The notes under the pieces: generated by a model
Databases searched by the model: none
Told to the model about the DNA's origin: nothing
Seen by the model: only the letters and a program-made list of their open reading frames with translations
Origin: an uncultured Victivallales bacterium
GTDB taxonomy: Bacteria; Verrucomicrobiota; Kiritimatiellia; UBA8416; CAZASC01
DNA length: 64,000 nt
Direction of reading: 5' to 3'
NCBI GenBank assembly: GCA_964487695.1
Contig: CAZASC010000003.1
Location: forward strand, 19,306-83,305
Made by a program: the position numbers and the translations under genes
Shown: in pieces, positions 6,612-57,245 of the stretch
Numbering within the stretch: the first letter of the stretch is position 1
Layout of the letters: each line of letters begins with the position of its first letter

Positions 6612-6657
6612 GTTCTGCCTTTACGAGCCAGTTTCGCGTGTATTTACGCCTGGCGGA

Positions 6658-7452: not shown

Positions 7453-8729
7453 GGCAATTGTCCCTCACTCACAGACGGTTGGTTTGCGGCTGGCTTCTTC
7501 CGGCCTGCCGGTTTGAAGCAGAGAAGCAGGATCAACCCGCTAACCATGCTGAGAAAACCCGCATATACAACGGGCACGCCAGGATCATGCACCACCTCCA
7601 GTGTGCTTTGCGTCAGATCGCCGGGATTGTAACCGGACTGGTAGAGTGTGTAGCCGCGAAAACTGAGAGGCGAATTCACTTCGATCGTTTTCTCTACGAG
7701 AACGTTGCTGTCTTCCAGAAGCTGGAGCTTGCTCTTGAAGCTGCGGATTGGTCTTGAACGGTTCTGAAAGCTGTCCTCATTTTCTGCGCCGTTTGAAAGA
7801 TATAGCAGCTTCAGGTTTCCGGCGGCCCCCTTGTCGGACGGAGAGTGGAGCATGTCGAAATCGGGATGCCTGGCGAATATCCACTTGCTGACATGAACAT
7901 CGCCGGAATTGACCTCAACGAGAATCGCGGGATTATTTGGAGACCCGGAGCGGCTGCCTGCTTCGTGGGTATTCATATCTATGACAAAATCCGGCTCATA
8001 TCTGGACACTGTCACGTTGACGGCATTCGATTCTGTCTGAGTTTCCTTGTCAGGATGAAGAGAAATAATGGAGGTGCCAACTTCGACAACTACCTGCGTC
8101 TCGATATGACGCTCCGGCCAGGCAATGCTGAGCATGTCCGGCTTGTCGGCATCAGGATTCGCATCCGTCTTCTCATCATAGTATTCCAGATTGAACTTAA
8201 CGAGGCGCACATCGAATGGCAGTCTTGTCGGGCCGGTGGGTGTCATGAAATGTGCTTGTGTCTCGCCTTCCCGGATTTCCATTTCGCCTTTTTGTCCCAC
8301 GGCTCCACGGATCACAGCGCCGCCAAGGATCAGCAGGAGGCTCATGTGCGTGAGAAGAAACCCCCAGCCGGATGTTCCCATGCGCCCGGACTTAATAAGA
8401 TTCGACATGCGGCGGATCAGGCATGCGACGACATTCAAGGAGAAAAAGACGAGCAGGCCGATAAACCACCACGACTCGAACACATTCGCAAGCCCGACAG
8501 AAGCGAGAAACTTCATCTGGCTTGCGTGCTGAGGATTGGCGCGGAGGTATTTCTGCACATCTCCGCCTTGGGGCAGAAGAGTGCCCAGAATGCAGGCCAC
8601 CACTATGAGGGAGCCGACTGCCGTCGCCAACTTGGCTGACGAAAGCTCCCCCAGAATAATTCGGAAGACCCCGGTACCTTCGGTACGTGTTGTCGTATCA
8701 GGTCGAGAATTCTCGTTGTTGTTGATCAC
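7449..8729 (-). CDS. ccsB: Cytochrome c biogenesis protein ResB/CcsB
   Basis: N-terminal TM ending ..ACILGTLLPQG, a large soluble loop and C-terminal TMs. This architecture and the pairing with ccsA are typical of System II. The gene abuts the tetraheme gene (8729/8730). Confidence 0.75.
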   Translation of the reverse strand: MINNNENSRPDTTTRTEGTGVFRIILGELSSAKLATAVGSLIVVACILGTLLPQGGDVQKYLRANPQHASQMKFLASVGLANVFESWWFIGLLVFFSLNVVACLIRRMSNLIKSGRMGTSGWGFLLTHMSLLLILGGAVIRGAVGQKGEMEIREGETQAHFMTPTGPTRLPFDVRLVKFNLEYYDEKTDANPDADKPDMLSIAWPERHIETQVVVEVGTSIISLHPDKETQTESNAVNVTVSRYEPDFVIDMNTHEAGSRSGSPNNPAILVEVNSGDVHVSKWIFARHPDFDMLHSPSDKGAAGNLKLLYLSNGAENEDSFQNRSRPIRSFKSKLQLLEDSNVLVEKTIEVNSPLSFRGYTLYQSGYNPGDLTQSTLEVVHDPGVPVVYAGFLSMVSGLILLLCFKPAGRKKPAANQPSVSEGQLP

Positions 8730-9314
8730 TTACTTCTTTACGTCAGGATCAGGATGTTCGATCTTCTTGAATGCCTGTTCGACATCGAAGCCGACTTTCT
8801 TTCCATCCTTGGTCGTGTAGAGCTCAGGATTCCAGGACGGCGATTTGTCGTTGTGGCATTTCTCGCAGCTTTTCGTGGCTGGATATACCATGCCGTTCTT
8901 GACGGCGTCATCGCGGACCTTCATGGTCTCCTTGCTCTTGTAATTCTTTCCGGCTCCGTGGCACGATTCGCAGCTGACACCTTCTTCGACCGGTATCACG
9001 TCTGTCTGCTTTGTCTCGGTCCAGTTGTAAGCGGTGGAGTGGCATTGCAGGCATTTCCCGCTCGTCTGAGGATTGTCTATCTTGAGCTTTGCGCCTGCGG
9101 CCTTTGCGGCATCCCCGGCCAGTGCGGCATACGCCTTGGCATGAGGACCTGCTTCCCACTTGCCGAACTGATCGCCCTTCTTCTCGCCTTTATGGCACAT
9201 CTTGCAGGACTTGACTCCAACATAAAGCGAAGCGTCAGGACCATCGCCAGCCTGAACGTTCGCCGCCGCAAAAATTCCCATCGCAATGCACGCAGTAACA
9301 ATATATGCCTTCAT
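8730..9314 (-). CDS. Periplasmic tetraheme cytochrome c (c554-like small multiheme)
   Basis: Signal peptide MKAYIVTACIAMGIFAAANVQA. Four CXXCH motifs: CKMCH, CLQCH, CESCH, CEKCH. Confidence 0.8.
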   Translation of the reverse strand: MKAYIVTACIAMGIFAAANVQAGDGPDASLYVGVKSCKMCHKGEKKGDQFGKWEAGPHAKAYAALAGDAAKAAGAKLKIDNPQTSGKCLQCHSTAYNWTETKQTDVIPVEEGVSCESCHGAGKNYKSKETMKVRDDAVKNGMVYPATKSCEKCHNDKSPSWNPELYTTKDGKKVGFDVEQAFKKIEHPDPDVKK

Positions 9315-20122: not shown

Positions 20123-20133
20123 GAACAAACCTT

Positions 20134-23978: not shown

Positions 23979-23981
23979 GGT

Positions 23982-28078: not shown

Positions 28079-28083
28079 GGACG

Positions 28084-28563: not shown

Positions 28564-28587
28564 ATCGTGTATTCCTTTTTTTGAGTG

Positions 28588-29901: not shown

Positions 29902-29914
29902 TGGTGCGATCCTC

Positions 29915-30223: not shown

Positions 30224-30379
30224 GCTCCTGCCTCCATTTAGGATTGAACTGTCGTTCTTAACTCTTTCCAACGTACCCGGTACCCGCAAGATGCTTGTTT
30301 GTCAAACTCCAAACTCCAGACGCCACGCTTATGCGTTTGACTGCTTTGACAAACACAACCCCATCGTTGAACAATCGGA

Positions 30380-30793: not shown

Positions 30794-30997
30794 TGCGCTT
30801 TATTTTATCCATAATATTCATCGTCAACAATGGGATAATTCTACAGGACATCCGTTCGCGAGGGCTTTCCCCTTGAGTCCGCCGTGCAGTCTACTGTATA
30901 TTTGCAACTTGTTGGCGCTTGGGATGGTGGGCGGCTCGTGAGAAATCAGGAACGCCATCCCTGGTCAACGCTGGTGTCGGACAGGGGATGTATATCC

Positions 30998-31852
30998 ATG
31001 TTGTTGGAAGCTTCATTGGCTGCTTCGGGAATCGGGCTGTTCTGCGTCGCTTCGGTGTTTTCCGTGGCCTGCCTGTTGTGTCGGAATCCGCCCGGAAGAG
31101 GTGAATTGGGAGTCTCCTTGCTTCTGGCATTGGGATGTGTCCCCCTCGTAGCGGTTCTGCTCCTGCGAAGCGCCAACACTGGCCGCGTGCCGCTCTTCAG
31201 CACTTTTGACGCCTTGACGGTCTATGGTGTGTTCCTCACCATAGCCGCACTCTGTTTCCTCACAAGACATCGGACGCAAGGAGTATTCGCGATCCTGTCC
31301 CCATATGTAACTATTATATTGATCGCAGGCTTTCCCGCCGTCGGCGTGGAAACTGGGCCTGTGCCGCATACGGTATCGAACGTGGTTTTGTTATCGCACA
31401 TGATTATCGCCTTCGCGGGATATGCGCTTTTCAGTCTGGCCAGCATTCTTGCTTTTGCCTACCTTATTCAGAATCGCAACTTCAAACATCGTAATTTCGG
31501 CGTGGTTTTCGAGCGATTGCCGGCATTGGAAACGTTGGACGACCTGATGTTCCGCCTGGTTGGTTTCGCGTTTCTCCTTCTGACGATCTCCCTCATGTTG
31601 GGCGTGTACCTGGTTCACCAGAGCGGCAGTGGCGCTGAATGGGCGGCAGACCCCAAGGTCGTGGCGACTTTTGTGACGTGGGCGCTCTACGCGGGACTAG
31701 TGCACATGCGCGCCAACGCCGGAAGGCACGGCACTCGACTGGCGCTGGTCACTTTCATCGGGCTCGCCTTTGTATTGTTTTCCATGATTGGCGTTCACAT
31801 GGTCGCGCATAGCGTCCACGGATTTGTCCAGATCGGTGTCGCAGCAAAATGA
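30998..31852 (+). CDS. CcsA-like cytochrome c assembly family / HemX-like membrane protein
   Basis: Trimmed to ATG 30998. Polytopic protein with the block ..ADPKVVATFVTWALYAGLVHMR.. seen in CcsA-like proteins encoded next to hemA. Its stop overlaps the hemA start. Confidence 0.65.
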   Translation: MLLEASLAASGIGLFCVASVFSVACLLCRNPPGRGELGVSLLLALGCVPLVAVLLLRSANTGRVPLFSTFDALTVYGVFLTIAALCFLTRHRTQGVFAILSPYVTIILIAGFPAVGVETGPVPHTVSNVVLLSHMIIAFAGYALFSLASILAFAYLIQNRNFKHRNFGVVFERLPALETLDDLMFRLVGFAFLLLTISLMLGVYLVHQSGSGAEWAADPKVVATFVTWALYAGLVHMRANAGRHGTRLALVTFIGLAFVLFSMIGVHMVAHSVHGFVQIGVAAK

Positions 31853-33192
31853 ACATGAATCTGTCGGTTCTCGGCATCAATTTTCGCACAGCTCCAATCG
31901 AGCTGCGTGAGCAGGCGTCGTTCGTCGCTGCCGATGTCGGCGTTGCGCTTGGCCGTCTGTGCGCGGAGTTTCCGGGAAGCGAAGCCGTGTTACTCTCGAC
32001 ATGCAACCGGACGGAATTATATACAGCCGGCATCGATGTGGAAGCAAAGCAAACGGCGCTTATCCGCATGCTGTTGAAGGGAAATGGATCCACTGATCTC
32101 TCTGAAGCGACACGACATTTCTACACAAAGAAGGATCTGACCGTGGCGGAACATCTACTGGCCGTCGTTTCGGGGCTGGACTCCATGGTGGTAGGCGAAA
32201 CGGAAATCCTTGGCCAGGTCAAACAGGCATACATGCTTGCTGAACAGGCTCAAGCCCTTGGCAAAGCCCTGGATCCCTTGTTCCAGAATGCGTTCAGGAT
32301 CGCCAAGCGGATACACACCGAAACGGATCTGTGCCGGGGCCGCGTATCCGTCAGCTCCATCGCGGTTGAATTCGCAGAGAAAGTATTTGAGGATCTGGGA
32401 TCCAAGACGGTGATGATCGTGGGAGCCGGCGAAACCGCAGAGCTATCGCTGAAAAGTCTTATCGAAAGGGGCGCAAAGGAGGTGCTCGTGCTCAACCGTT
32501 CCCTGGAGAGGGCGTTGTCGCTGGCTGAACGATACGGAGGGCGCGCCATTCCTTATGACCTTCTCGATGACTACCTGCCCCGCGCCGACATCGTAATCAG
32601 CTCGACCAGTGCGCCGCACTGTGTAATCCGCGAGGCCACCGTACGCAAGGCCGTTGCAGTGCGCCGCGGTTTACCCCTGTTGTTGATCGATATCGCCGTT
32701 CCACGCGACATTGAACCAGCCGCCGGAGAACTGGCGAACGTATATCTCTACGACATTGACGATCTGCAGCGTGTGGCAGCAGAAAATCTGGCGAAGCGGC
32801 AGGAATCCGTGGAAGAAGCCCGAAAGATTATTCGGGAGGGTGCGGCTGAGGTCGCGTGCATGTTCGAAAGCGCAGACCTGAGGGAGATGATGCGCAGGCT
32901 GGACGAATTCGGGCAGGAGGTATCTGATACTGTGCTGCAGCGGATGCTTGCCAAGGAAAAAATGGCGGCACTGTCCGATGAAGCGCGCGAGGAAGTTCGC
33001 GCCATTGCACAAAAAGTGGTGGCAAAATTACTGGCTGGTCCAAGAGAGTCGCTCAAGCGGGCAGCCCGGAACGGCCAATGGGCGGAATATGCCAACGTGG
33101 TGAGCGATCTCTTTCGATTTAACGACCGTCCCGGCGCAGATCGAGATAATAGTGAAGCAAAAAATGATAAAGACAGCAGGAAAAGACAGTAA
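31849..33192 (+). CDS. hemA: Glutamyl-tRNA reductase
   Basis: N-terminus LSVLGINFRTAPIELRE, the catalytic-Cys block LLSTCNRTELY, and the NADPH fold VMIVGAGETAE. Confidence 0.9.
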   Translation: MNMNLSVLGINFRTAPIELREQASFVAADVGVALGRLCAEFPGSEAVLLSTCNRTELYTAGIDVEAKQTALIRMLLKGNGSTDLSEATRHFYTKKDLTVAEHLLAVVSGLDSMVVGETEILGQVKQAYMLAEQAQALGKALDPLFQNAFRIAKRIHTETDLCRGRVSVSSIAVEFAEKVFEDLGSKTVMIVGAGETAELSLKSLIERGAKEVLVLNRSLERALSLAERYGGRAIPYDLLDDYLPRADIVISSTSAPHCVIREATVRKAVAVRRGLPLLLIDIAVPRDIEPAAGELANVYLYDIDDLQRVAAENLAKRQESVEEARKIIREGAAEVACMFESADLREMMRRLDEFGQEVSDTVLQRMLAKEKMAALSDEAREEVRAIAQKVVAKLLAGPRESLKRAARNGQWAEYANVVSDLFRFNDRPGADRDNSEAKNDKDSRKRQ

Positions 33193-33378: not shown

Positions 33379-34815
33379 ATGAGGAAAATACTGGTTGCCG
33401 AGTTTGCGATGCCTCGTTACGTAACCGCCTGTCGCCGCCAACTTGTCCTGATGTTCGGGCTTTTTATTCTTGCCCTTCAGGTGGTATCGTCATCCTGCCT
33501 GGCTGAGGATGGATATCCGATGTCGGCAACGCCATGGTATGAAGGGCATATCTCGGGGCAATCGCGAAGCGAATACGAATATCGCTCGTCCGATGGCGAA
33601 CACGACTCTGATCTTTACGAATACTTGTATTTCAGCGATCGGGATCTGGCGAACCGCCATTTGGATTTCTATTTCTCGGGAAGATTTCAGAAGGACCTCA
33701 ACAACCTGTCCACTTCGCTCGCGGATAATGAATTCGCCAGCATAGACGACCTTACAAGCGATTATTATTTGTTCCAACTCTACCTGGAAGCGCACGACAT
33801 CGCGAGGGATGTCCTGTTTCGTGGTGGCCGCCAGTATATTGATGTCGCTGACAGCCTGCACATAGACGGCGGCCAGTTGATGGCATTCGAGAATTCAAGG
33901 TTTGGCGGCCAGGTTTTCTACGGCCGGCCTGTCAGCTACTACTCATCTGTCTCCAATGACTGGGCAGGTGGGTTCTCGCTCATCGGGCGCCCTTGGGCGC
34001 AAAATCAGACGCGCCTAACCTATGTCCGCTATCATGACGACAGCGCCGACGTGGACGATCAGCATTATGCGCTGGACGTCAGGCAAAGGTTTGATGAGGA
34101 ATTGAGAAGTCAGTTGCAAGTCTCGGAGCTGAACAAGTCTTTCGAAATGGCAAGTCTGGACTTATACTACGATTCTACAGCCGGCGATTTCGGAGGTTAT
34201 GTCGGGGTTCGCCGGTGGGGCGATGCGACGGGCGATACCATTGCCTATTCCCCGCTTCTACAGGTATTGGGAAGTTTCGATCCTTATACCTACGTTTGCG
34301 CCAGAACCTACATGAATGTCCTGCCCTGGCTTTACATCGCGCCTGAGTTCACGGCGCGCATGGTTGCCACCGGCGACGAGAACGCTCAAAACACGGACTA
34401 CACCCACTACGATCTTACGATCTCCATCGAACCGGACCACACGTGGAGCGCGTCGGTGGCCGGCGAATACTGGGATGTCCGCGGCGGCGACAGTTTTTTT
34501 GGCGTTAGCGGAGAACTGCGCTATAGACACGGAAGACTCTGGGAGATCTCGGCAGGCACAGGCTATACTCACTATGACTACACGCAGTATGTGGATTATA
34601 CCGGCACAATCGACGCGGGCGATGTGCATTTTTCCGGCGACGGTAGTGTTATGCAGGATTCACCTGATTCATACAGTTATTTTCTGGCTGGAAAGTGGAA
34701 TCTGAATAAAACCTTTGCAATACAGGCGCGGGGCGAAATGGAGACTGACACCGGTACGAACGAAACCAATGGGCACAGCTTGATGGCCCAGATTACCGTC
34801 GTGTTGCGAATCTGA
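33379..34815 (+). CDS. Putative outer-membrane beta-barrel protein (candidate porin of a porin-cytochrome conduit)
   Basis: Hydrophobic signal (..LVLMFGLFILALQVVSSSCLA). Tyr/Asp/Gly-rich sequence with alternating hydrophobicity throughout (YEYRSSDGEHDSDLYEYLYFSD; LRYRHGRLWEISAGTGYTHYDY). The stop is 12 nt before the multiheme gene. No enzyme motifs. Confidence 0.5.
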   Translation: MRKILVAEFAMPRYVTACRRQLVLMFGLFILALQVVSSSCLAEDGYPMSATPWYEGHISGQSRSEYEYRSSDGEHDSDLYEYLYFSDRDLANRHLDFYFSGRFQKDLNNLSTSLADNEFASIDDLTSDYYLFQLYLEAHDIARDVLFRGGRQYIDVADSLHIDGGQLMAFENSRFGGQVFYGRPVSYYSSVSNDWAGGFSLIGRPWAQNQTRLTYVRYHDDSADVDDQHYALDVRQRFDEELRSQLQVSELNKSFEMASLDLYYDSTAGDFGGYVGVRRWGDATGDTIAYSPLLQVLGSFDPYTYVCARTYMNVLPWLYIAPEFTARMVATGDENAQNTDYTHYDLTISIEPDHTWSASVAGEYWDVRGGDSFFGVSGELRYRHGRLWEISAGTGYTHYDYTQYVDYTGTIDAGDVHFSGDGSVMQDSPDSYSYFLAGKWNLNKTFAIQARGEMETDTGTNETNGHSLMAQITVVLRI

Positions 34816-34826
34816 AGAGAGATAAT

Positions 34827-36371
34827 ATGACCAACAAACTCTTTAACTGCGCCATCATCTTTCTGATGCTGTTTCTCGCCGGATGCGACGAAAAGGACAA
34901 GTATACCCTTAAGTTCAGTCACACCCTCCATGTCAAGGAAAACGGCATGTCATGCAGCGACTGCCATGGCGATGTCAAAGATGGCCGGCTGGCCTGGCCG
35001 GGGCACAAAGTTTGTGCCGATTGTCACGGCGATATGATTGAGACCAACGAGATCAGCGCCAAGACATGCGGCGTTTGCCACAAAGAAAAGAACCTTAACG
35101 ATATTGCCAAGCGCCCGGAATATGCCGCTGCAGCCCCCGGCGTTTTCACGCATACTGCGGCGTTGAAGACGGAATGCGCAAGCTGCCACGCTTACATGCT
35201 GGCGCCCGATCAGGACTACGTGCCAAAAACCTCCCGCAGCGACATCATAATGATCAGGCAGAAATCGCACGAGAGCGGCAGGTCCTGCGACACCTGTCAC
35301 AGCAACATGAGCCCGCTCGTTCCTCCGGCCAGTCACAAGAAGGACTGGACGCGCCGTCACGGTAGTGAAGCGAATGCGCCGGACGCGGTGTGCAGCGTGT
35401 GCCACCATGAAGAAACATGCAGGGAATGTCATGAGACCAATAAACCATTGTCGCACAATAATAATCTCTGGAGATTGAAAACCCACGGAATCGAAGCTTC
35501 ATGGGAGCGGGCAAAATGCCGGGTGTGTCACGAGGTGGATTTCTGCGTCGAATGCCACTCCCAGACGCGTCCACTCTCGCACAATGCGGCGTGGCGCGGG
35601 ACGCATTGTCAGAATTGCCACACATCACAGGAAATGGGCACCGGTTGTGTGACTTGTCATTTTGAGGGGATTGCCGAGCACCCCGATCCGCATGCCGCAG
35701 GCTGGAAGAATCAGCACTGCAATCAGTGCCATCCCGGCAGTCCAGAGTGGAATCAGTGTATTCTCTGCCATACGGAAGGAATTGGCGGTCATCCTGATCC
35801 TCACAGTGCCGGCTGGCTCAACCAGCACTGTAACCAATGCCATGCAGACACACTGCAAGACGATAACTGTCTGATCTGCCATGCGCAGGGATTGGGCGGC
35901 CATCCCGATCCTCATGCAGCCGGCTGGCTCAGCCAGCACTGTAACCAGTGTCACGTGGACACGTTGCAAAATCTGTGCGTGATCTGTCACGCGCAGGGAT
36001 TGAACGGTCATCCCGATCCGCATCCCGCGGGCTGGCAGCTCCAGCACTGCAGTCAATGTCATGCCGGACAATCCGGTAACCCATGTGCGACATGTCATGC
36101 GGCGGATGTTGCGTCTCACCCTGATCCCCATCCTTTGAGTTGGCTGAATGGCCATTGTGCGTCCTGCCATCAGAGCGGCGATTCATCCTGCAATCAGTGC
36201 CATGTTGCCGGGACGCTCCTCACGTATCACGTTGCCGTATGGGATCCATCTTTACATGCTGGGTTCACTGCGCAAACTGATTGTTTCCAGGCCGGTTGCC
36301 ATGACACAGGTAATGCACGAAGTAAAAAGAAGATTATTCATGCGGCGACTCCAGCCAAGGGTCATAAGTAG
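34827..36371 (+). CDS. Multiheme cytochrome c lipoprotein, 21 CXXCH plus one CX4CH
   Basis: Lipobox LFLAGC, with Asp at +2. I counted 21 canonical CXXCH in 514 aa, plus CFQAGCH. The central part has doubled-CXXCH blocks (CSVCHHEETCRECH, CRVCHEVDFCVECH). The C-terminal part has five tandem di-heme repeats. Confidence 0.85.
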   Translation: MTNKLFNCAIIFLMLFLAGCDEKDKYTLKFSHTLHVKENGMSCSDCHGDVKDGRLAWPGHKVCADCHGDMIETNEISAKTCGVCHKEKNLNDIAKRPEYAAAAPGVFTHTAALKTECASCHAYMLAPDQDYVPKTSRSDIIMIRQKSHESGRSCDTCHSNMSPLVPPASHKKDWTRRHGSEANAPDAVCSVCHHEETCRECHETNKPLSHNNNLWRLKTHGIEASWERAKCRVCHEVDFCVECHSQTRPLSHNAAWRGTHCQNCHTSQEMGTGCVTCHFEGIAEHPDPHAAGWKNQHCNQCHPGSPEWNQCILCHTEGIGGHPDPHSAGWLNQHCNQCHADTLQDDNCLICHAQGLGGHPDPHAAGWLSQHCNQCHVDTLQNLCVICHAQGLNGHPDPHPAGWQLQHCSQCHAGQSGNPCATCHAADVASHPDPHPLSWLNGHCASCHQSGDSSCNQCHVAGTLLTYHVAVWDPSLHAGFTAQTDCFQAGCHDTGNARSKKKIIHAATPAKGHK

Positions 36372-36564
36372 AGGAGAGGCCGCTTGTCTGGCTGGATGAC
36401 ATGGGTTTTATGTGGTGCATAATTCGATTAATCGTAGAATGATCCTATTGTTGCACCCAGGCGTTTTGCGCTAATATATGGATGGTTTCGTGGTAAAAGG
36501 TTTAGTATCAAGCATGTACCGATATTGGGCGCTCGAAGTGACGAAAAGTCAGGAGAAAGATGTG

Positions 36565-39237
36565 ATGTACAAAAAAATGCTAAGCAAAGTGATGTTGAAG
36601 TTTGTTGCCGCGATCGGCGTTTGCGCTGTCACGCTGGCGACGGTTCAGGCAGCCGGTGTTCCGTTTGCCCAGATTGTTTCTCATCCGCTTACGCCGTCAG
36701 GCATTAAGGCTGCCGGTCTATCCGCAAGCACACAAAAATCTTCCGGGCTGCTTTCGACTGGCTTGGGCACGCCGGTTTACCTTGAAGTCCAGGTGACAAA
36801 CATAGTAGTCACACAAGTGGTGTGGAGGCTGCAAATTCCCACCAACGATAGTCGCCCCTCGCTGGCCGTATTGCAGGACAGTCCTCTTAACAACTTGCTA
36901 CGAGCTCCAATCTACGATGTCGGAGAAAGAAATACCTATTTTGTGCCCACAAACCAGTACGCCGGCGCCTCGATTGTTTATTCTTACACATATACCAACA
37001 GCCCTGGCGGCAATAAGACGAATAGCGTAACGGTAGCCCTTACCAATGTGACCACAGGTGGATCGGTCACCTATTCCAATATTTTGGGTGGAGCCACCAC
37101 GAATACGACGACGGTAACCGTCACTAATAACGTGTACTTGTTGCAGGGCAGGACGGCCCTGTCGCCTGACGTCGTTGGCGAGTATATTGTCGCAGCCAAT
37201 GTGTACGGAAAGACCGGTGCGGTGTCGGTATTGGTTTCGGTCACCAATAAGATCACAGCCGCAGAGTACATCGGTGTGGAAGATAGCGGTTGCGCGTTCT
37301 GCCACAGCGGAAAGCCATTCACTACCAACGACAATTATGGCGCTTGGTTTGTGACATATCACGCAGATGCTTTCGAACGGAAAATAGATGGCGGCCCCGC
37401 ATTTGACGGGACGTTACTGGGCGCCGGCTTCAAGTCGTCTTGCTACAGTTGCCACACGACGGGTTATGATGCAAATTCCAATGCGCTCAACAATGGCGGC
37501 TTCTACGACGAAATGACCAATGCCGCGCTCCTGCCGCCAAACTCCGTCAATTACTGGATTCCGCCCACTTCCGGCCCTGGCCAATGGGAAAACATGCCGG
37601 TTGCTCTGCAGGACAAGGCCAACATCCAATGTGAAGACTGTCACGGTCCCGCAGGCGAGCACTTCGGAGATACCAACAAGATTTCCATCAGTCTTAGCGC
37701 TGGAGTTTGCGCTTCGTGCCACGATTCGACTAACGGTCATGTAACCGCTTTTGAGTGGAGCCAATCTATGCATGGCTCCGGTTCGGCCTCATACAAAACC
37801 AACAACGTATCCGCCAATCCTCTGACATTTACCTGGTGCAGCCGCTGCCATAGCACGGCAGGTTTCATAGATGCTTTCAAGACCAATGGGATAACGCGAA
37901 CGACCGGACTCGAGGGCATTACCTGCGCCGCGTGCCATGATCCGCATCCCACGGGAACAGAAACGAACGAGCATCTGCTGCGAACCCTTGCTGATATCAA
38001 AATTGGCCCCGAGAATGGGCCAGTAGTGGCGACTATTTCCGATGGCGGCGATGGCAAACTCTGCATGCAGTGCCACCGGTCACGGTTCGTTTCCGCCGCA
38101 GTAAACACATCGAATTATCCGGCTTCGTTTGGGCCACATGACAGTCCAATTGCCGATATGCTGGCTGGGGTCAACGGCATCGAGTACGGCGGTTTCACGA
38201 ATCTCTCTTTGCGAAGTCCGCATCTGACTATTCTCAAGGATACATGCATTAACTGTCACATGGAGCAGAGCATAAAGACCAGTACCAATCCGTCCATCAG
38301 CAACTCCTTCATGTATGCTCAGGGGCATACCATGAAGATGGTCACAACCGACGGCGTAGATATTGCCGTGGCTTGCCAGAGTTGCCATGTTGAAACGGGC
38401 GGCACGAACTTCGATTTCGTTGACACAACATTCAACCCACTGACCGATAATCCGAATAATGACTATGATGGCGACGCGGTTCACGGGGTCGTTGTGGAAG
38501 GTGTACAGACTCAGGTCTCCAATCTTCTGTCCAGGCTGGCCGCATTGCTTCCGCCGTTCAGCCACGGCAGCATAGGGGTGAATGCGAATTCCAGTGTTGA
38601 GCAATTGAAGGCCGCTTACAACTATGATTTCGTAAGCGCCGACGGCAGTCATGGTGTTCACAATGCCGGGTATGCTGTGGATCTTCTCAAGGCCTCCATA
38701 GCTGACATGCAGGATTGGGGACAGTACTCGCCCAGAACCAACACCACGCTGAAATTGCCAGTTTTCACATGGCCGGCGGCGGATGGCACTCTTAAATCAG
38801 GGGTCACAAACTACACGTTGCAGATCCTGCTGAACGGAAAGGCGTTCAAGACGCTGGCTCTGAAAGGTGCGCCAACCTGGACTCCTGCCGCGCCTTTGGC
38901 TGCTGGCAACTATCAGTGGCGCGTCGGAACATCGCGGTGGATTTCGTTCAGTCGTCTTGCCGTGGCTCCAGGCCCGATCACCCTGATTTCGCCCAGCGGC
39001 ATATCGACGGGCGGGACGACGCGTGTCTTTACATGGGTGGCCGATCTAAATTCCACCAAATATAACATGGAGATACACACTCCTAATGGGAAAACCAGTA
39101 CTTTCGCGGGAATAACTGGCACAAGCGTTGCAAAGACTATTGCCAAGGGCACAAACACATGGCAGATGCAAGGCATCAACACGGACGGCCTTGGAACTGG
39201 GCCATGGTCAACTAATGTGACTTACATCATTCGCTAG
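36565..39237 (+). CDS. Secreted nonaheme cytochrome c with Thr/Asn-rich beta-sandwich-like N-terminal region and C-terminal Ig-like repeats
   Basis: Trimmed to ATG 36565 (AGGAGA RBS; signal MYKKMLSKVMLKFVAAIGVCAVTLATVQA). Nine CXXCH: CAFCH, CYSCH, CEDCH(GPAGEH), CASCH, CSRCH, CAACH, CMQCH, CINCH, CQSCH. Two C-terminal FTW-containing repeats (PVFTWPAADG..; RVFTWVADLN..). Confidence 0.8.
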   Translation: MYKKMLSKVMLKFVAAIGVCAVTLATVQAAGVPFAQIVSHPLTPSGIKAAGLSASTQKSSGLLSTGLGTPVYLEVQVTNIVVTQVVWRLQIPTNDSRPSLAVLQDSPLNNLLRAPIYDVGERNTYFVPTNQYAGASIVYSYTYTNSPGGNKTNSVTVALTNVTTGGSVTYSNILGGATTNTTTVTVTNNVYLLQGRTALSPDVVGEYIVAANVYGKTGAVSVLVSVTNKITAAEYIGVEDSGCAFCHSGKPFTTNDNYGAWFVTYHADAFERKIDGGPAFDGTLLGAGFKSSCYSCHTTGYDANSNALNNGGFYDEMTNAALLPPNSVNYWIPPTSGPGQWENMPVALQDKANIQCEDCHGPAGEHFGDTNKISISLSAGVCASCHDSTNGHVTAFEWSQSMHGSGSASYKTNNVSANPLTFTWCSRCHSTAGFIDAFKTNGITRTTGLEGITCAACHDPHPTGTETNEHLLRTLADIKIGPENGPVVATISDGGDGKLCMQCHRSRFVSAAVNTSNYPASFGPHDSPIADMLAGVNGIEYGGFTNLSLRSPHLTILKDTCINCHMEQSIKTSTNPSISNSFMYAQGHTMKMVTTDGVDIAVACQSCHVETGGTNFDFVDTTFNPLTDNPNNDYDGDAVHGVVVEGVQTQVSNLLSRLAALLPPFSHGSIGVNANSSVEQLKAAYNYDFVSADGSHGVHNAGYAVDLLKASIADMQDWGQYSPRTNTTLKLPVFTWPAADGTLKSGVTNYTLQILLNGKAFKTLALKGAPTWTPAAPLAAGNYQWRVGTSRWISFSRLAVAPGPITLISPSGISTGGTTRVFTWVADLNSTKYNMEIHTPNGKTSTFAGITGTSVAKTIAKGTNTWQMQGINTDGLGTGPWSTNVTYIIR

Positions 39238-39310
39238 AACAGGATTGATAAATCTATGGCTGCTACCGCCCGCCGGTTTGCCGGCGGGCGGCTGGCTTTT
39301 GGAGAAGGAG

Positions 39311-40057
39311 ATGAAAGGTATGAAATCGTGGATTGTCGCCGGATCAACGTTGGCGCTGGCAGTTTTCTTTATTACAGGTTGTCATCAGTCGGAGTCGGTC
39401 AAGCAATCGTCTTCAAGTTCAAGCGCCGTTTGTCCCGTTGCATCGACGATGAAGGAAGGCCCGTCATCCGGAGCTGTTTGTCCAGCAGCCGCTTCGAGCG
39501 CAGAGAAAGAGTCGGCTTCATGCAGCATGTGTCCGGCTTCAGCTAAAGGAAGCAGCGCCACATCCTCCAACACATGTTCTATGTGTCCTTCTTCAGGCCA
39601 GGGGAATAGCTCCAAGCCGACCAATGCTATCGCCGTTTGTCCAGCTTCCATGCAAGCAAACGGCGTCATGTCCACCAATTACCCAGCCGGGTACGGCATG
39701 CACGGATCGAAACCGGCGGCTATGGGTGCGCAGAGCCAGCCGTCTTTTGACGTCAAGGTTCCTCCTGTCGAAGGAGGCGTGACCATTGCGGCTCTTGTGG
39801 AACAGCGGGAGAAACTGGTCGGCACGGAGGTGAAACTTCGCGGCAAAGTAACCAAATACACCGCCAACATCATGAACGCCAATTGGCTTCACATCATGGA
39901 TGGTTCTGACAAGCGAGACCTTGTGGTTACCACAAAAGAGAGTCTCAAGGTGGGTGATACCGTCGTGGTCAAGGGACGCCTTGAACGTGATGTCGATATC
40001 GGCGCCGGGTATTCATACGACCTCATCATCCGCGGAGCGGATGTAACGGTAGAATAG
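39311..40057 (+). CDS. Lipoprotein with periodic Cys-Pro / CSMCP motifs and OB-fold-like C-terminal domain
   Basis: Trimmed to ATG 39311 (GGAG RBS; lipobox FFITGC). A Ser/Ala-rich region carries AVCP, AVCP, CSMCP, CSMCP and AVCP at ~17-aa spacing. The C-terminal ~110 aa (..NWLHIMDGSDKRDLVVTT..VGDTVVVKGRLERDVDIGAGYSYDLII..) resemble an uncharacterised OB-like family. Confidence 0.55.
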   Translation: MKGMKSWIVAGSTLALAVFFITGCHQSESVKQSSSSSSAVCPVASTMKEGPSSGAVCPAAASSAEKESASCSMCPASAKGSSATSSNTCSMCPSSGQGNSSKPTNAIAVCPASMQANGVMSTNYPAGYGMHGSKPAAMGAQSQPSFDVKVPPVEGGVTIAALVEQREKLVGTEVKLRGKVTKYTANIMNANWLHIMDGSDKRDLVVTTKESLKVGDTVVVKGRLERDVDIGAGYSYDLIIRGADVTVE

Positions 40058-40181: not shown

Positions 40182-41372
40182 ATGATCGGAATTTCGAAAC
40201 TTTATTGCGGCACGGTTGAACCGTCCGACCCGTTGCGTTATGGGCGGCAATCCAAAGACCTGCCTTCGCATCTCCTGCAATTTTCCGTCGACAAGAAACC
40301 TGTGGTTGTCTGGAATGTTGGCCGCCGCTGTAACCTGCGTTGTGTGCACTGCTACTCGCAATCCCGAAACGAGGATTATTCCGGAGAACTTTCCCACAAG
40401 GAAGGCATAAGGTTGATAGACGATCTTGCCGGCTTCGGTTGCCCGGTGCTCCTCTTTTCCGGCGGTGAACCTTTGATGCGTCCTGACATCTTCGAGCTCA
40501 TCGAGCACGCTTCAACAAGAAAGATGCGCGCGGTAATCTCTACCAACGGAACGCTGATCACAAAGGAAGTTGCTAAGCAAGTCAAGGCTGCCGGACTTTC
40601 GTATGTAGGCATAAGTATGGACGGTCTGAAAGAAACGAACGACTTATTCCGCGGCGTTGAAGGCGCATTCGAAGATGCTTTGGCCGGAGTGCGAAACTGT
40701 CTGGAGATGGGCGTCAAGGTGGGGCTTCGTTTTACCATGACACGCGGCAATTTTCACGACGTGGGCGGAATTCTGGATCTGATCGAACGCGAAGGCATTC
40801 CCCGTGTTTGTTTCTATCACCTCGTCTATGCAGGCCGGGGCAGCAAGCTCGTGACTTCCAGCCGGATGTCCCATGAAGAGACGCGCGCAACAGTGGATCT
40901 GATAATGAATCGCACAAAGGAACTCCACGATCGCGGGAAGCACGTCGAAGTCCTCACCGTAGACAATCATACGGACGGTCCTTATCTCTATCAGCGCCTG
41001 TTGCGCGAGAATCCGGACAAGGCCGAGGCTGTGCTGACGCTCCTTCGTATGAACGGCGGAAACAGCAGCGGGCTCGGCATCGGCTGCGTAAGCTGGGATG
41101 GTTCAGTCCATCCCGATCAGTTCTGGCGACACTACACTGCGGGCAACGTCAGGCAGAAGCCGTTTAGTGAAATCTGGGGCAATCCTACGGATGAGCTCCT
41201 GCCGAAATTGCGGACACGCAAGCAGTACATCGAGGGGCGTTGCGCCAAATGCAAATGGCTGGACATTTGCAACGGCAATTTCCGCGTTCGTGCCGAAGCG
41301 ATCACAGGGAACGTCTGGGCGGAGGAACCCGATTGTTATTTGTCCGACCGCGAAATTGGACTGGAGAGCTGA
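40182..41372 (+). CDS. ahbC: Radical SAM/SPASM enzyme, NirJ1/AhbC-like (Fe-coproporphyrin III synthase candidate)
   Basis: Radical SAM motif CNLRCVHCY. The N-terminus ..KLYCGTVEPSDPLRYG.. is typical of NirJ-type proteins, and there is a C-terminal SPASM-like Cys cluster (CAKCKWLDICNG). Which of the paired genes is ahbC and which ahbD is inferred from order only. Confidence 0.65.
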   Translation: MIGISKLYCGTVEPSDPLRYGRQSKDLPSHLLQFSVDKKPVVVWNVGRRCNLRCVHCYSQSRNEDYSGELSHKEGIRLIDDLAGFGCPVLLFSGGEPLMRPDIFELIEHASTRKMRAVISTNGTLITKEVAKQVKAAGLSYVGISMDGLKETNDLFRGVEGAFEDALAGVRNCLEMGVKVGLRFTMTRGNFHDVGGILDLIEREGIPRVCFYHLVYAGRGSKLVTSSRMSHEETRATVDLIMNRTKELHDRGKHVEVLTVDNHTDGPYLYQRLLRENPDKAEAVLTLLRMNGGNSSGLGIGCVSWDGSVHPDQFWRHYTAGNVRQKPFSEIWGNPTDELLPKLRTRKQYIEGRCAKCKWLDICNGNFRVRAEAITGNVWAEEPDCYLSDREIGLES

Positions 41373-41373
41373 T

Positions 41374-42471
41374 ATGCACCCCCACGCACCGCACGGCTCC
41401 GCTGCGACTGGCAACGAGCTGCGTCTCGTTTTCTGGGAACTCACTGCGCGCTGTAATCTAACATGCAAGCACTGCCGGGCGGAGGCGCAGGATCATTTCG
41501 TCCAAGGCGAACTGAGCACCGAAGAAGTCATGCAGGTTGCCACGGATATTCGCGAGTGTGGCGACCCTATAATGATCCTGACAGGCGGCGAACCGCTGGT
41601 AAGAACCGATATCTACGACATCGCCAAATATTGTTCCGGCATCTTCACGCGGGTCGCCATGGCCACAAACGGCACGCTGATTGACGACAAGGTTGCTAAG
41701 AAGATTGCGGACTGTGGCATCCAGCGGGTGAGCGTTAGTCTGGACGGTGCTACAGCCGCTACGCACGATGCCTTTCGAGGTCTGCCCGGAAGTTTCGATG
41801 CGACTTTGCGCGGGTTCGATGCGCTTCGGCGTGCAGGCGTATCGGTCCAGGTGAATGTAACGGCTTCACGCTACAACCTGGCTGAGATTGAAGACATCCT
41901 CAATCTCGCGCTCGCACGAGGGGCAGATGCGTTTCATGTGTTTGTCCTTGTGCCGGTCGGTTGCGGCGCCGAACTGGATGAAGCCGCGCGATTGACCCCT
42001 GCAGAAATGGAGAAAGTGCTTCGATGGCTCTTTGAGAAGTCGCTCGAACTGCGCGGGCAGGTGCATATCAAGGCGACATGCGCGCCCCAGTATTACAGGA
42101 TCATGCGCGAAATATCCCGAGACAAGGGACTTCAGGTTGAAAGCTCAGGTCACGGCATGCAGGCCATGACTCGCGGCTGTCTCGCAGGTTCGGCGGTATG
42201 CTTCATTTCGCGCATCGGCGATGTTCAACCATGCGGCTATCTTCCAGTACGAGTTGGTAACGTGCTGGAAAAGAAGTTTGGAAACATCTGGAAAGAATCG
42301 GAAGTTTTTCAGGCATTGCGCGACCCCGGCGAGTTGAAAGGCAAATGCCACGCTTGCGGCTATCGGAAACTCTGTGCCGGATGTCGCGCCCGCGCATACG
42401 CCGACACCACTGATTTTCTAGGCGAAGACCCGGATTGTGCCTATGTCCCGGTCACGGAGACAAGCGGATGA
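41374..42471 (+). CDS. ahbD: Radical SAM/SPASM enzyme, NirJ2/AhbD-like (heme b synthase candidate)
   Basis: Trimmed to ATG 41374, 1 nt after the ahbC stop. Radical SAM motif CNLTCKHCR and a C-terminal Cys cluster (CHACGYRKLCAGCRARA). Confidence 0.65.
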   Translation: MHPHAPHGSAATGNELRLVFWELTARCNLTCKHCRAEAQDHFVQGELSTEEVMQVATDIRECGDPIMILTGGEPLVRTDIYDIAKYCSGIFTRVAMATNGTLIDDKVAKKIADCGIQRVSVSLDGATAATHDAFRGLPGSFDATLRGFDALRRAGVSVQVNVTASRYNLAEIEDILNLALARGADAFHVFVLVPVGCGAELDEAARLTPAEMEKVLRWLFEKSLELRGQVHIKATCAPQYYRIMREISRDKGLQVESSGHGMQAMTRGCLAGSAVCFISRIGDVQPCGYLPVRVGNVLEKKFGNIWKESEVFQALRDPGELKGKCHACGYRKLCAGCRARAYADTTDFLGEDPDCAYVPVTETSG

Positions 42472-42638
42472 AAGAACTGGCAGGCAATGACGTAGCGCAG
42501 GCGTCCCCGCCTGCGAGCGCAAGCGCCGTCCCGGCGCGCAAATCCGAAGAACATGGAATGACGCCAAAGGTGCCTGACGGCGGGACGCCATCGAAACTCG
42601 CAGCCGGGACGGCTGCGGTCCGGAAGGTCGGCGTTTGA
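42468..42638 (+). CDS. Possible small (56 aa) low-complexity ORF translationally coupled on both sides
   Basis: Its ATG overlaps the ahbD stop (ATGA), and its stop overlaps the TTG start of the next ORF. The product is Ala/Pro/Ser-rich with no recognisable domain. Confidence 0.25.
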   Translation: MKELAGNDVAQASPPASASAVPARKSEEHGMTPKVPDGGTPSKLAAGTAAVRKVGV

Positions 42639-57235: not shown

Positions 57236-57245
57236 GATTTTGAAA

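What the first reader, a model, noticed from the sequence alone, without database searches (positions are those of the whole stretch)
33379..40057. Candidate undescribed porin-cytochrome electron conduit inserted inside the heme-biosynthesis locus
Four co-directional genes sit close together: only 12 nt separate the barrel from the first cytochrome. (a) A ~480-aa signal-peptide protein has Tyr/Asp/Gly-rich alternating sequence typical of an outer-membrane barrel. (b) A lipoprotein carries 21 CXXCH plus one CX4CH in 514 aa. (c) An 890-aa secreted protein has a Thr/Asn-rich beta-sandwich-like N-terminus, 9 CXXCH and two FTW-containing Ig-like C-terminal repeats. (d) A Cys-Pro-motif lipoprotein follows. 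The logic parallels known porin-cytochrome systems (MtrCAB, Geobacter OmbB-OmaB-OmcB, PCC3). However, the heme counts and domain composition do not match any of these as I know them. The cassette separates hemA from ahbCD and the rest of the pathway. That placement suggests heme supply is co-regulated with a complex needing more than 30 hemes per unit.
Basis: partly seen in the sequence, partly recalled or inferred. Interest (0 to 1): 0.8.

Follow-up and report, generated by a model that had tools for sequence, protein, structure and literature searches.

The report
Porin–cytochrome conduit beside heme genes
An outer-membrane barrel, a 22-heme lipoprotein "wire" and a 9-heme surface-type cytochrome form a conserved gene set that probably carries respiratory electrons across the outer membrane of a Kiritimatiellota-type bacterium; it is an uncharacterised variant of a known kind of machine, and in this lineage it stays next to heme-synthesis genes.

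Summary
The genes, heme counts, lipoboxes and flanking hemA/ahbCD are all as described; the barrel–cytochrome gap is 11 nt, not 12.

The barrel has no Pfam or NCBIfam match. It models as a barrel of about 22 strands with short loops. In 34 of 34 related loci with downstream sequence it is followed directly by a multiheme lipoprotein with 5–26 CXXCH. In Kiritimatiellota-type loci a 9-heme cytochrome is always adjacent as well.

The 9-heme protein belongs to the OcwA/OmhA family of cell-surface reductases (profile E=7.6e-36). Its relatives in other phyla carry type IX secretion tails.

The 22-heme protein has about 23 residues per heme and grows by tandem di-heme repeats.

A hemA gene, or the hemX-hemA-ahbCD block, lies within a few kb in 18 of 21 loci. 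The heme link is therefore conserved, not a one-off insertion.

Best reading: a three-part trans-outer-membrane electron conduit built on Geobacter Pcc logic but with different parts. I found only a passing literature mention and no experiments. The fourth gene, a Cys-Pro lipoprotein, sits behind a terminator-like hairpin and its role is unclear. Direction, partner and localisation remain inferred.

The parts
33379..34815 (+). Gene A: outer-membrane beta-barrel (478 aa). Predicted sheath of the conduit.
   Evidence: No Pfam or NCBIfam hit. The AF2 model has pLDDT 81 and pTM 0.73, with about 22 long strands and short loops. The family consensus ends ...EVRF. 39 close homologues, and 614 clusters at 50% identity with E<=1e-3. 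Always followed by a multiheme cytochrome gene.
34827..36371 (+). Gene B: 514-aa lipoprotein with 21 CXXCH + 1 CX4CH. Predicted heme wire threaded into the barrel from the periplasmic side.
   Evidence: Motif count. Nearly all of 55 homologues have a lipobox or a Gly-Cys at the signal-peptide end (44 by strict pattern). Median 23.8 residues per heme; heme number ranges 11-24 in this set and up to 26 in the related loci. Five tandem 36-37-aa di-heme repeats at aa 285-466. Only the N-terminal c7-like triheme module has solved relatives (ActA, 6BTM). Starts 11 nt after the barrel gene.
36396..36423 (+). Promoter-like site in the 193-nt B-C spacer.
   Evidence: Consensus scan only, 10 of 12 matches. 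Weak evidence.
36565..39237 (+). Gene C: 890-aa secreted nonaheme cytochrome of the OcwA/OmhA family, with an N-terminal beta-sandwich and C-terminal Ig-like repeats. Predicted surface-exposed terminal component.
   Evidence: All 9 CXXCH are invariant in 64 homologues. The profile hits OcwA 6I5B at E=7.6e-36 and OmhA 6QVM at 1.6e-21. Distal His sites are conserved. Homologues in other phyla carry T9SS or CHU_C sorting tails. A C homologue is adjacent to the barrel in all Kiritimatiellota-type loci.
39266..39291 (+). Terminator-like hairpin after gene C.
   Evidence: 11 G-C pairs followed by a T-rich tail.
39311..40057 (+). Gene D: lipoprotein with a Cys/Ser-rich linker (5 Cys-Pro) and a C-terminal OB-fold-like domain. 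Conserved neighbour of unknown role.
   Evidence: Lipobox ITGC. Only weak OB-fold or TOBE hints. The C-terminal domain recurs within a few kb of the cluster in 11 loci, usually after ResB-CcsA. The Cys-Pro linker is conserved only in L044.
30884..33192 (+). HemX-like cytochrome c assembly protein and glutamyl-tRNA reductase HemA. Upstream heme-synthesis flank.
   Evidence: Pfam and NCBIfam. A hemA-type gene is linked to the cluster in 18 of 21 loci with enough flank.
40182..42471 (+). AhbC and AhbD, radical-SAM steps of siroheme-dependent heme b synthesis. Downstream flank.
   Evidence: TIGR04546, 669.8 bits, above its cut-off. TIGR04545, 453.8 bits, just under its cut-off of 500.
5112..9314 (-). 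Distant but probably cognate genes: tetraheme c554-like cytochrome (8730-9314), ResB (7449-8729), CcsA (6658-7452) and a membrane-anchored NapC/NirT-like cytochrome with 6 CXXCH (5112-6611).
   Evidence: Pfam and NCBIfam. Homologues of the tetraheme and NapC/NirT-like proteins sit right beside the barrel cluster in most relatives.

Best explanation
Genes A, B and C encode a three-component porin-cytochrome conduit that carries electrons across the outer membrane.

Shown:
- A is a barrel of about 22 strands.
- B is a lipoprotein with 22 heme motifs at about 23 residues per heme.
- C is a secreted nonaheme cytochrome of the OcwA family.
- The three genes are inherited together.

Inferred:
- B is tethered by its N-terminal lipid on the periplasmic side and threads its heme chain through A.
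- C docks on the cell surface and hands electrons to an insoluble or macromolecular acceptor such as Fe(III) or Mn(IV) minerals, humics or a partner cell.
- Electrons reach B from the quinone pool through the NapC/NirT-like membrane cytochrome (5112-6611) and the tetraheme c554-like protein (8730-9314). Both are neighbours of the cluster in relatives.
- Keeping the cluster next to hemA, ahb and ccs genes serves the large heme demand, at least 31 hemes per complex.

The direction of flow (outward reduction) is assumed by analogy with OcwA and Geobacter Pcc.
For: Barrel:
- The AF2 model shows about 22 strands, pLDDT 81 and short loops.
- Foldseek matches only 18-24-strand outer-membrane barrels.

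Linkage:
- A multiheme gene with 5-26 CXXCH follows the barrel, usually with a 4-nt overlap, in 34 of 34 loci with downstream sequence. These include distant relatives in Desulfobacteraceae, Sumerlaeota and Deferribacteraceae.
- A separately fetched Brocadiales locus shows the same barrel→cytochrome pair.
- One database protein (P0424) fuses this barrel to a 13-heme domain.

B:
- Lipobox conserved family-wide.
- Heme density exceeds that of MtrA, given as about 33 aa per heme in the paper read.
- Modular di-heme repeats.
- Distant B homologues are the periplasmic member of barrel → 11-12-heme → 10-heme-lipoprotein clusters, the order of Geobacter ombB-omaB-omcB.

C:
- OcwA profile hit at E=7.6e-36.
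- OcwA and OmhA are cell-surface iron reductases.
- T9SS tails on homologues.
- 9 CXXCH invariant.

Module inheritance: pairwise divergences of A, B and C correlate over 20 loci, with r=0.86 (A-B), 0.88 (A-C) and 0.73 (B-C).

Upstream chain and heme genes are conserved nearby.

The host is a respirer: complex I and a Qrc-like complex lie in the window.
Against: - There are no experimental data of any kind.
- No HMM or fold match ties A to MtrB/PioB or to any named Pcc or Ext porin.
- C has only a Sec signal, no lipid anchor, and no identified route across the outer membrane.
- C belongs to the NrfA/ONR/MccA superfamily and keeps the distal His typical of substrate-binding hemes. A periplasmic enzyme role is therefore possible.
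- Which membrane holds B's lipid is unknown.
- Gene order in the window (A-B-C) differs from nearly all relatives (C-A-B). C may have its own promoter.
- The correlation of divergences could reflect shared descent alone.
- Cultured Kiritimatiellota are described as fermenters (context).
Confidence: 0.6

Rival explanations
1. Same architecture, opposite direction. The conduit takes electrons in, from Fe(II), a cathode-like mineral or a syntrophic partner, and feeds them to the respiratory chain, as MtoAB, PioAB and the proposed PCC3 do.
For: Porin-cytochrome conduits are reversible in principle, and PCC3 and MtoAB are assigned to oxidation. Several c-type cytochromes and a Qrc-like complex lie nearby. 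Nothing in the sequence fixes the direction.
Against: The surface component is of the OcwA/OmhA type, whose characterised members are reductases of iron oxides. The associated NapC/NirT-like and CbcL-like membrane cytochromes in relatives resemble the quinol-oxidising entry points of metal reducers; that resemblance rests on my own knowledge of ImcH and CbcL. No Cyc2-type or oxygen-reductase gene is adjacent.
Confidence: 0.15
2. C is a periplasmic NrfA/OTR-like reductase for a soluble substrate (nitrite, hydroxylamine, sulfite, tetrathionate). B is its electron donor and A is the substrate or product porin. No heme chain crosses the membrane.
For: The C profile also hits NrfA, ONR and MccA. 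The distal His next to the two putative penta-coordinate hemes are conserved. OcwA reduces nitrite in vitro. C lacks a lipid anchor. In a Brocadiales locus the barrel-cytochrome pair is followed by NrfH-NrfA.
Against: A 12-26-heme lipoprotein is an extravagant donor for a periplasmic enzyme. The barrel-B pair persists in lineages that lack C. At about 22 strands with short loops, A is larger than typical 16-18-strand solute porins. C-family members elsewhere carry T9SS surface-sorting tails. OcwA and OmhA are surface proteins.
Confidence: 0.12
3. Only A+B form the conduit, as in two-gene Pcc and MtoAB systems, with the long B chain itself reaching the surface. C and D are co-located cytochrome or heme-handling proteins that are not part of the complex.
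For: Distant relatives have only barrel + cytochrome. Shi et al. argue that 12-14-heme periplasmic cytochromes could span the membrane alone. B-C spacer with a promoter-like site and a terminator before D.
Against: C is adjacent to the barrel in every Kiritimatiellota-type locus with flank. Its divergence tracks the barrel's as closely as B's does (r=0.88).
Confidence: 0.1

Closest known systems
Geobacter Pcc clusters (OmbB-OmaB-OmcB) and the wider 'Pcc' set of Shi et al. 2014
   Same: Logic and gene order: porin-like barrel → periplasmic multiheme → outer multiheme. The strand number is within the reported 18-22. Porin and periplasmic cytochrome are always adjacent and co-diverging. Taxa reported to carry Pcc (an anammox planctomycete, a Deferribacteres member) overlap the distant relatives of this barrel.
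   Different: The periplasmic partner has 22 hemes (family 11-26) against 5-14, and it is a lipoprotein. The outer cytochrome is OcwA-type and not a lipoprotein. Here the outer cytochrome co-diverges with the porin, unlike in Pcc. Direct sequence homology to OmbB or OmaB could not be tested.
OcwA (Thermincola potens, PDB 6I5B) and OmhA (Carboxydothermus ferrireducens, 6QVM)
   Same: Gene C shares the nonaheme core: nine CXXCH, C-terminal helices and distal His positions. Profile E=7.6e-36 and 1.6e-21.
   Different: OcwA and OmhA are from Gram-positive bacteria with no outer membrane or porin partner. C adds an N-terminal beta-sandwich and C-terminal Ig-like repeats. The window protein keeps only one His of each HH pair.
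MtrCAB / MtoAB / PioAB
   Same: Concept of a heme wire sheathed by a barrel with a surface cytochrome.
   Different: No hit to the MtrB_PioB or DmsE/MtrA family models above threshold. About 22 strands, against the 28 trans-membrane motifs reported for MtrB or 26 strands in the solved structure (my own knowledge). B is not a decaheme. Pfam 'MtrC domain II/IV' hits are short generic heme-motif matches.
PCC3 (He et al. 2017, Fe(II)-oxidiser genomes)
   Same: Very heme-rich, repetitive periplasmic cytochrome, median 21 hemes. Low residues-per-heme. Proposed periplasm-spanning wire.
   Different: PCC3 has a 5-TM inner-membrane protein with two WX3HX13H motifs and an extracellular cytochrome with a median of 34 hemes. 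Neither is present here. PCC3 is proteobacterial. No PCC3-bearing taxon appeared among B homologues.
Verrucomicrobia porin-MHC clusters (He et al. 2017 mSphere) and 'novel PCC' operons noted in Kiritimatiellaeota bins (Peterson et al. 2020 preprint)
   Same: PVC-superphylum hosts from anoxic lake water. Recognised by gene organisation only.
   Different: The Verrucomicrobia system has an 8-heme periplasmic cytochrome. The Kiritimatiellaeota operons were only drawn in a supplementary figure, and I could not check whether they are the same family.

Membership tests
Porin-cytochrome conduit (generic kind) | Outer-membrane beta-barrel wide enough to hold a heme chain | tested here: met
   AF2 model with about 22 strands and short loops, pLDDT 81. 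By standard barrel geometry (my inference) the backbone diameter is about 4 nm, the strand number of TonB-dependent transporters that enclose a plug domain. Model coordinates could not be read, so the lumen was not measured.
Porin-cytochrome conduit (generic kind) | Barrel gene conserved next to a periplasmic multiheme cytochrome gene | tested here: met
   34 of 34 loci with downstream sequence, plus the separately fetched L042 and L045.
Porin-cytochrome conduit (generic kind) | Physical complex and electron transfer across the membrane | not testable with these tools
   Needs biochemistry or multimer modelling.
Geobacter-type Pcc (Shi et al. 2014) | Sequence homology of the barrel to OmbB-type porins and of the periplasmic cytochrome to OmaB-type | not testable with these tools
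   No Geobacter sequence or HMM was available. There is only indirect overlap of taxa. Named members of the extended barrel family were Brocadiales, Planctomycetota and Sumerlaeota, all 'hypothetical protein'.
Geobacter-type Pcc (Shi et al. 2014) | Porin with 18-22 strands; periplasmic cytochrome with 5-14 hemes; outer-membrane lipoprotein cytochrome | tested here: inconclusive
   The strand number fits. Heme number (22) and lipidation pattern (B lipidated, C not) do not.
MtrB/PioB + MtrA/DmsE | Match to PF11854/TIGR03509 (barrel) and TIGR03508 (decaheme) | tested here: not met
   No barrel hit at E<=1. TIGR03508 scores only 20.9 bits on C, against a cut-off of 192. MtrA is not among the PDB hits of the B profile.
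PCC3 | Conserved 5-TM inner-membrane protein with two WX3HX13H motifs in the cluster | tested here: not met
   No ORF of at least 150 aa in the 64-kb window carries WX3HX13H.
PCC3 | Extracellular cytochrome with very many hemes (median 34) | tested here: not met
   C has 9 hemes, invariant in the family.
OcwA/OmhA nonaheme surface cytochromes (gene C) | Nine CXXCH in conserved order with significant full-domain sequence similarity | tested here: met
   Profile E=7.6e-36 to 6I5B, spanning the heme domain in four segments. 102 of 120 homologues have exactly nine motifs.
OcwA/OmhA nonaheme surface cytochromes (gene C) | Conserved non-ligating distal His pairs at the two penta-coordinate hemes (H281/H282 and H380/H381 in OcwA) | tested here: inconclusive
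   HH at both sites in 40 of 64 family members. The window protein has G-H392 and H525-D, so one His of each pair is kept. Heme coordination itself cannot be tested.
OcwA/OmhA nonaheme surface cytochromes (gene C) | Fold match | tested here: inconclusive
   Foldseek of the 890-aa model (pLDDT 72.8) gave no hit below E=0.01. The best was MccA at E=0.015.

The most novel reading that the evidence does not exclude
B is a single-polypeptide wire from inner membrane to cell surface.

Its lipid anchor usually has Asp, Asn or Lys at +2. Asp at +2 is the inner-membrane retention signal in E. coli, and whether that rule holds here is unknown. The anchor would hold the N-terminus on the inner membrane. 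The 12-26-heme chain would bridge the whole periplasm and thread the barrel, which would make soluble periplasmic shuttles unnecessary. Chain length would be tuned by adding or removing 36-aa di-heme repeats.

In the same reading, the Cys-Pro lipoprotein D is a periplasmic heme-buffering or hand-off factor for the System II cytochrome maturation machinery. That would explain why this cluster, a dedicated hemA, and resB-ccsA travel together.
Probability: 0.15. Interest if true: 0.85.

Novelty: new variant of a known kind. Interest (0 to 1): 0.6.

Why it matters
Kiritimatiellota and their relatives are abundant in anoxic lakes and marine sediments and are usually treated as fermentative polysaccharide degraders.

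A clade-wide conserved electron conduit would mean they can respire minerals, humics or partner cells. It comes with candidate quinol-oxidising cytochromes, a periplasmic shuttle, its own hemA, and cytochrome-maturation genes alongside. That would change carbon, iron and mercury-methylation budgets in those habitats.

Mechanistically, it joins a Gram-positive-type surface reductase (OcwA family) to a Gram-negative barrel. It also offers a natural series of heme wires of 12 to 26 hemes, which is a ready-made test of how wire length relates to envelope width. The barrel family has 614 clusters at 50% identity and no curated model, so it is a usable new marker for environmental surveys.

Tried and rejected
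1. Foldseek of the barrel against the PDB gave only generic outer-membrane barrels (MOMP, AlgE, OprD, FimD/PapC; TM 0.35-0.51). MtrB was not in the top 50, so no specific relative was found.

2. Foldseek of the C model was uninformative; the best hit was MccA at E=0.015. The sequence profile was far more powerful.

3. Pfam and NCBIfam scans of the barrel and of eight distant barrel relatives at E<=10 found no bridging family.

4. I tried to tie the barrel to Geobacter OmbB or Ext porins. No Geobacter sequence was obtainable. Two cluster look-ups on 20 distant representatives returned only unnamed proteins from Brocadiales, Planctomycetota and Sumerlaeota. hhalign to a Deferribacteraceae barrel was positive (95.8%). 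It was weaker to L040 (90%, partial) and negative to L038.

5. PCC3 membership was rejected: no WX3HX13H membrane protein and the wrong heme count in C.

6. I considered that D's Cys-Pro motifs are a family hallmark. They are not. Most D homologues have two OB-like domains, ordinary signal peptides and 0-1 Cys-Pro. Only L044 shares the motif.

7. The upstream OMP-like gene (28588-29901) is not a paralogue of the barrel (hhalign probability 0.1%).

8. Rfam found nothing in the window.

9. The first genome-collection scan, with the 39-sequence alignment, failed for lack of a conserved stretch. It was repeated with 10 sequences.

Full report
**1. Observation**

The four co-directional ORFs are present as described.

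- Gene A (33379-34815, 478 aa) has a signal-peptide-like N-terminus and no heme motif.
- Gene B (34827-36371, 514 aa) has the lipobox LAGC and exactly 21 CXXCH plus one CX4CH.
- Gene C has 9 CXXCH.
- Gene D (likely start 39311 or 39320) has the lipobox ITGC and five Cys-Pro dipeptides.

The A-B spacer is 11 nt. The B-C spacer is 193 nt and contains a promoter-like site. An 11-G-C-pair terminator-like hairpin (39266-39291) separates C from D.

The flanks are heme biosynthesis:

- Upstream: HemX-like protein and HemA.
- Downstream: AhbC (above the TIGR04546 cut-off) and AhbD.
- Further downstream: YgbA, AhbAB, CbiK, SirC, HemC-CobA-HemD, HemB and HemL.

**2. The barrel**

A has no Pfam or NCBIfam match even at E<=1. 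With 39 homologues as alignment, AlphaFold2 gives a confident barrel (pLDDT 81, pTM 0.73) of about 22 long strands joined by mostly very short loops. The family consensus ends in ...EVRF, a typical outer-membrane C-terminal signal.

Foldseek against the PDB returns only generic 18-24-strand outer-membrane barrels at TM 0.35-0.5. A profile search of PDB sequences finds nothing.

By standard barrel geometry (my inference, not measured on coordinates), 22 strands give a backbone diameter of about 4 nm. TonB-dependent transporters have the same strand number and enclose a 150-residue plug. The barrel is therefore not a narrow OmpA- or nutrient-type barrel.

An exhaustive profile search finds 614 clusters at 50% identity with E<=1e-3, and 434 with E<=1e-10. 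The family is large and unannotated. Named members are 'hypothetical protein' from Brocadiales, Planctomycetota and Sumerlaeota.

**3. Conserved linkage**

Close relatives of A occur in MAGs labelled Kiritimatiellales, Pontiella, Pontiellaceae, Lentisphaerae, Victivallales and Verrucomicrobiota. Relatives at 22-30% identity occur in Desulfobacteraceae, 'Deltaproteobacteria', Sumerlaeota and Deferribacteraceae.

In all 34 loci that retain downstream sequence, the barrel gene is followed by a multiheme cytochrome gene, usually with a 4-nt overlap. Heme motif counts by lineage are:

| Lineage | CXXCH in the downstream cytochrome |
|---|---|
| Pontiella-type | 12 |
| Other Kiritimatiellota-type | 18-26 |
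| Desulfobacteraceae, Sumerlaeota, 'Deltaproteobacteria' | 13-14 |
| Deferribacteraceae | 5 |

Every Kiritimatiellota-type locus with upstream sequence has a large cytochrome directly upstream of the barrel. It carries 9 hemes, occasionally 8, and is 730-1130 aa long.

Only the window and one other contig (L044) place C after B.

A Brocadiales locus shows barrel → 13-heme lipoprotein cytochrome. Two unrelated contigs found through B homologues show barrel → 11-12-heme periplasmic cytochrome → 10-heme lipoprotein cytochrome, which is the Geobacter ombB-omaB-omcB order. One database protein (P0424) fuses this barrel to a 13-heme domain.

Over 20 loci the pairwise divergences correlate: r=0.86 for A-B, 0.88 for A-C and 0.73 for B-C. 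The mean divergences are similar. This fits inheritance as one module, although shared descent alone could produce it.

**4. The 22-heme protein**

- Nearly all of 55 B homologues have a lipobox or a Gly-Cys at the end of the signal peptide (44 by a strict pattern). The +2 residue is mostly Asp, Asn or Lys, and a conserved FSHxLHV motif follows.
- Heme motif counts run from 11 to 24 in that set and up to 26 in the loci.
- The median is 23.8 residues per heme. This is denser than the roughly 33 quoted for MtrA in the paper read.
- In the window protein, residues 285-466 are five tandem 36-37-aa units: HPDPH…W…HCxxCH…CxxCH. They are 51-78% identical to one another.
- The CX4CH motif is conserved only in the three closest homologues.
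- Only the N-terminal c7-like triheme module has solved relatives: ActA of alternative complex III, and a GSU1996 domain. MtrA is not detected.

**5. The 9-heme protein**

A profile of 64 homologues has all nine CXXCH invariant. It hits OcwA of Thermincola potens (6I5B) at E=7.6e-36 across the heme domain and C-terminal helices. It hits OmhA (6QVM) at 1.6e-21, and NrfA/ONR/MccA more weakly.

OcwA and OmhA are the cell-surface iron-oxide reductases of Gram-positive thermophiles. They have two penta-coordinate hemes flanked by non-ligating His pairs. Those pairs appear as HH in 40 of 64 family members. The window protein keeps one His at each site.

Family members in other phyla carry T9SS (PF18962) or CHU_C sorting tails, or are lipoproteins. 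Kiritimatiellota members have plain Sec signals followed by a conserved RPLTPxE motif, and many have TSP3 repeats.

The AF2 model (pLDDT 72.8) shows an N-terminal beta-sandwich, a helical heme domain and low-confidence C-terminal beta domains. Foldseek on it was uninformative.

**6. Gene D**

Only the C-terminal, roughly 100-aa OB-fold-like domain is conserved. Pfam gives only weak OB-fold and TOBE hints.

In 11 relatives a homologue lies within a few kb of the cluster, usually right after resB-ccsA. Those homologues typically have two such domains, an ordinary signal peptide and 0-1 Cys-Pro. The Cys-Pro linker is shared only with L044. Its function is open.

**7. The heme connection**

By tblastn, a hemA-type gene lies within about 4 kb of the cluster in 18 of 21 loci with enough flank. 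Three arrangements occur:

- The full hemX-hemA-ahbC/D block lies divergently next to the 9-heme gene (L002, L008, L009, L026, L027).
- The block lies downstream (L032).
- A short hemA is embedded between the tetraheme and 9-heme genes in Pontiella-type loci. It is 364 aa, lacks the dimerisation domain, and still scores above the TIGR01035 cut-off.

ResB-CcsA and a c554-like tetraheme usually follow B in freshwater lineages. In the window these sit 25 kb away at 6658-9314, beside a membrane-anchored NapC/NirT-like cytochrome with 6 CXXCH. Homologues of that cytochrome in the related loci carry 6 CXXCH plus one variant motif.

In Pontiellaceae that cytochrome, and a CbcL-like fusion of 11 hemes with an FdnI-type cytochrome b, are adjacent to the cluster. 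L044 carries two CbcL-like genes plus hemA and ahbAB.

The cluster is thus one piece of a conserved, reshuffled supercluster for making and using c-type cytochromes. It is not a one-off insertion. Co-regulation was not tested.

**8. Mechanism**

Shown: the barrel, the lipoprotein heme-dense cytochrome, the OcwA-family cytochrome, and their obligate linkage.

Inferred:

- B threads A.
- C sits outside.
- Electrons come from quinol through the NapC/NirT-like and tetraheme proteins.
- Flow is outward, to minerals, humics or partners.

If heme spacing resembles MtrA (10 hemes over about 8-10 nm; the 104 Å figure is quoted), 22 hemes could span roughly 18-22 nm. That raises the possibility of a periplasm-spanning wire.

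Rivals are reverse flow, a periplasmic NrfA-like enzyme system with a porin, and a two-component A+B conduit with C and D as bystanders.

**9. Comparison and novelty**

The logic matches Geobacter Pcc, described as a porin of 18-22 strands with an adjacent periplasmic cytochrome and an outer cytochrome. Homology to it could not be tested for lack of sequences. The overlap of taxa (anammox planctomycetes, Deferribacteres) and a 95.8% hhalign match to a Deferribacteraceae barrel are only suggestive.

- It is not Mtr.
- It is not PCC3: there is no WX3HX13H membrane protein, and C has 9 hemes rather than about 34.
- The Verrucomicrobia porin-MHC of He et al. has an 8-heme partner.
- The only mention I found of such operons in Kiritimatiellaeota is one sentence and a supplementary figure. 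Searches combining Kiritimatiellota or Pontiella with porin-cytochrome or multiheme terms found nothing else.

I rate it a new variant of a known kind.

Noticed in passing
window 21385-27630 (-): Qrc-like respiratory operon: pentaheme QrcA-like protein (27097-27630), molybdopterin subunit (24665-27100; the best models are PhsA, QrcB and ArrA, all below cut-off), QrcC/DsrO-like FeS protein, NrfD/DsrP-like membrane subunit, and a 4-heme class-I cytochrome (21385-22626).
   Followed up: partly
window 27632-30289 (-): A 437-aa protein with outer-membrane-protein features (coiled-coil N-terminus, ends ...FSYGF, no family hit) is flanked by three monoheme c-type cytochromes, directly upstream of the Qrc-like operon. 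It is unrelated to barrel A (hhalign probability 0.1%). It could be a second, different porin/cytochrome pairing.
   Followed up: partly
window 5112-9314 (-): c554-like tetraheme, ResB, CcsA and a membrane-anchored NapC/NirT-like cytochrome with 6 CXXCH lie in a row. The homologues in relatives carry 6 CXXCH plus one variant motif and sit next to the barrel cluster. From my own knowledge the last one resembles Geobacter ImcH; this was not tested.
   Followed up: partly
L015 6560-7654 (also L010, L014, L017, L019, L021, L022, L024, L025): Pontiella-type loci carry a short glutamyl-tRNA reductase between the tetraheme gene and the 9-heme gene of the conduit cluster. It is 364 aa, lacks the dimerisation domain, and scores above the hemA cut-off.
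   Followed up: partly
L015 1671-3626 (-); L044 11143-15044 (+): Fusion proteins of 9-11 c-type hemes with an FdnI/Ni-hydrogenase-type cytochrome b lie next to the cluster in relatives. This is CbcL-like by my own knowledge. None was seen in the window.
   Followed up: no
P0424 (976 aa), P0387 (1123 aa): One database protein fuses this barrel family to a C-terminal 13-heme domain. Another fuses a ResB-like N-terminus to the barrel. These could be real fusions or gene-calling read-through.
   Followed up: no
L042 6001-10659: In a Brocadiales (anammox) contig the barrel and its 13-heme lipoprotein cytochrome are followed directly by NrfH- and NrfA-like genes.
   Followed up: no
window 39311-40057; L044 7182-7706 and 9380-10174: Lipoproteins with repeated Cys-Pro(-Val/Ala) motifs in a Ser/Ala-rich linker occur after the 9-heme gene in the window and in L044. 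Cys-Pro is the heme-regulatory motif in other systems (my own knowledge). No test was possible.
   Followed up: partly
P0161, P0162, P0165: Some members of the 9-heme family are tandem duplications with 18 CXXCH, 1100-1360 aa long.
   Followed up: no
window 15-3530 (+); L044 2164-3678: An 1171-aa protein combines a spermine-synthase-like domain with FMN_bind and Fer4_5 domains, and is followed by ApbE (3471-4889). L044 has a spermine-synthase-like gene between its B and C homologues.
   Followed up: no
window 42635-42970 (+): A YgbA_NO ('nitrous oxide-stimulated promoter') family gene sits inside the ahb heme-synthesis block. It is conserved at that place in L002 and L027.
   Followed up: no
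window 13441-20649 (-) and 54965-63475 (+): A soluble NAD-linked formate-dehydrogenase-like set (NuoE-like, NuoF-GltD fusion, FdhA-like, FdhD) and a complex I operon flank the region. The host is equipped for respiration.
   Followed up: no
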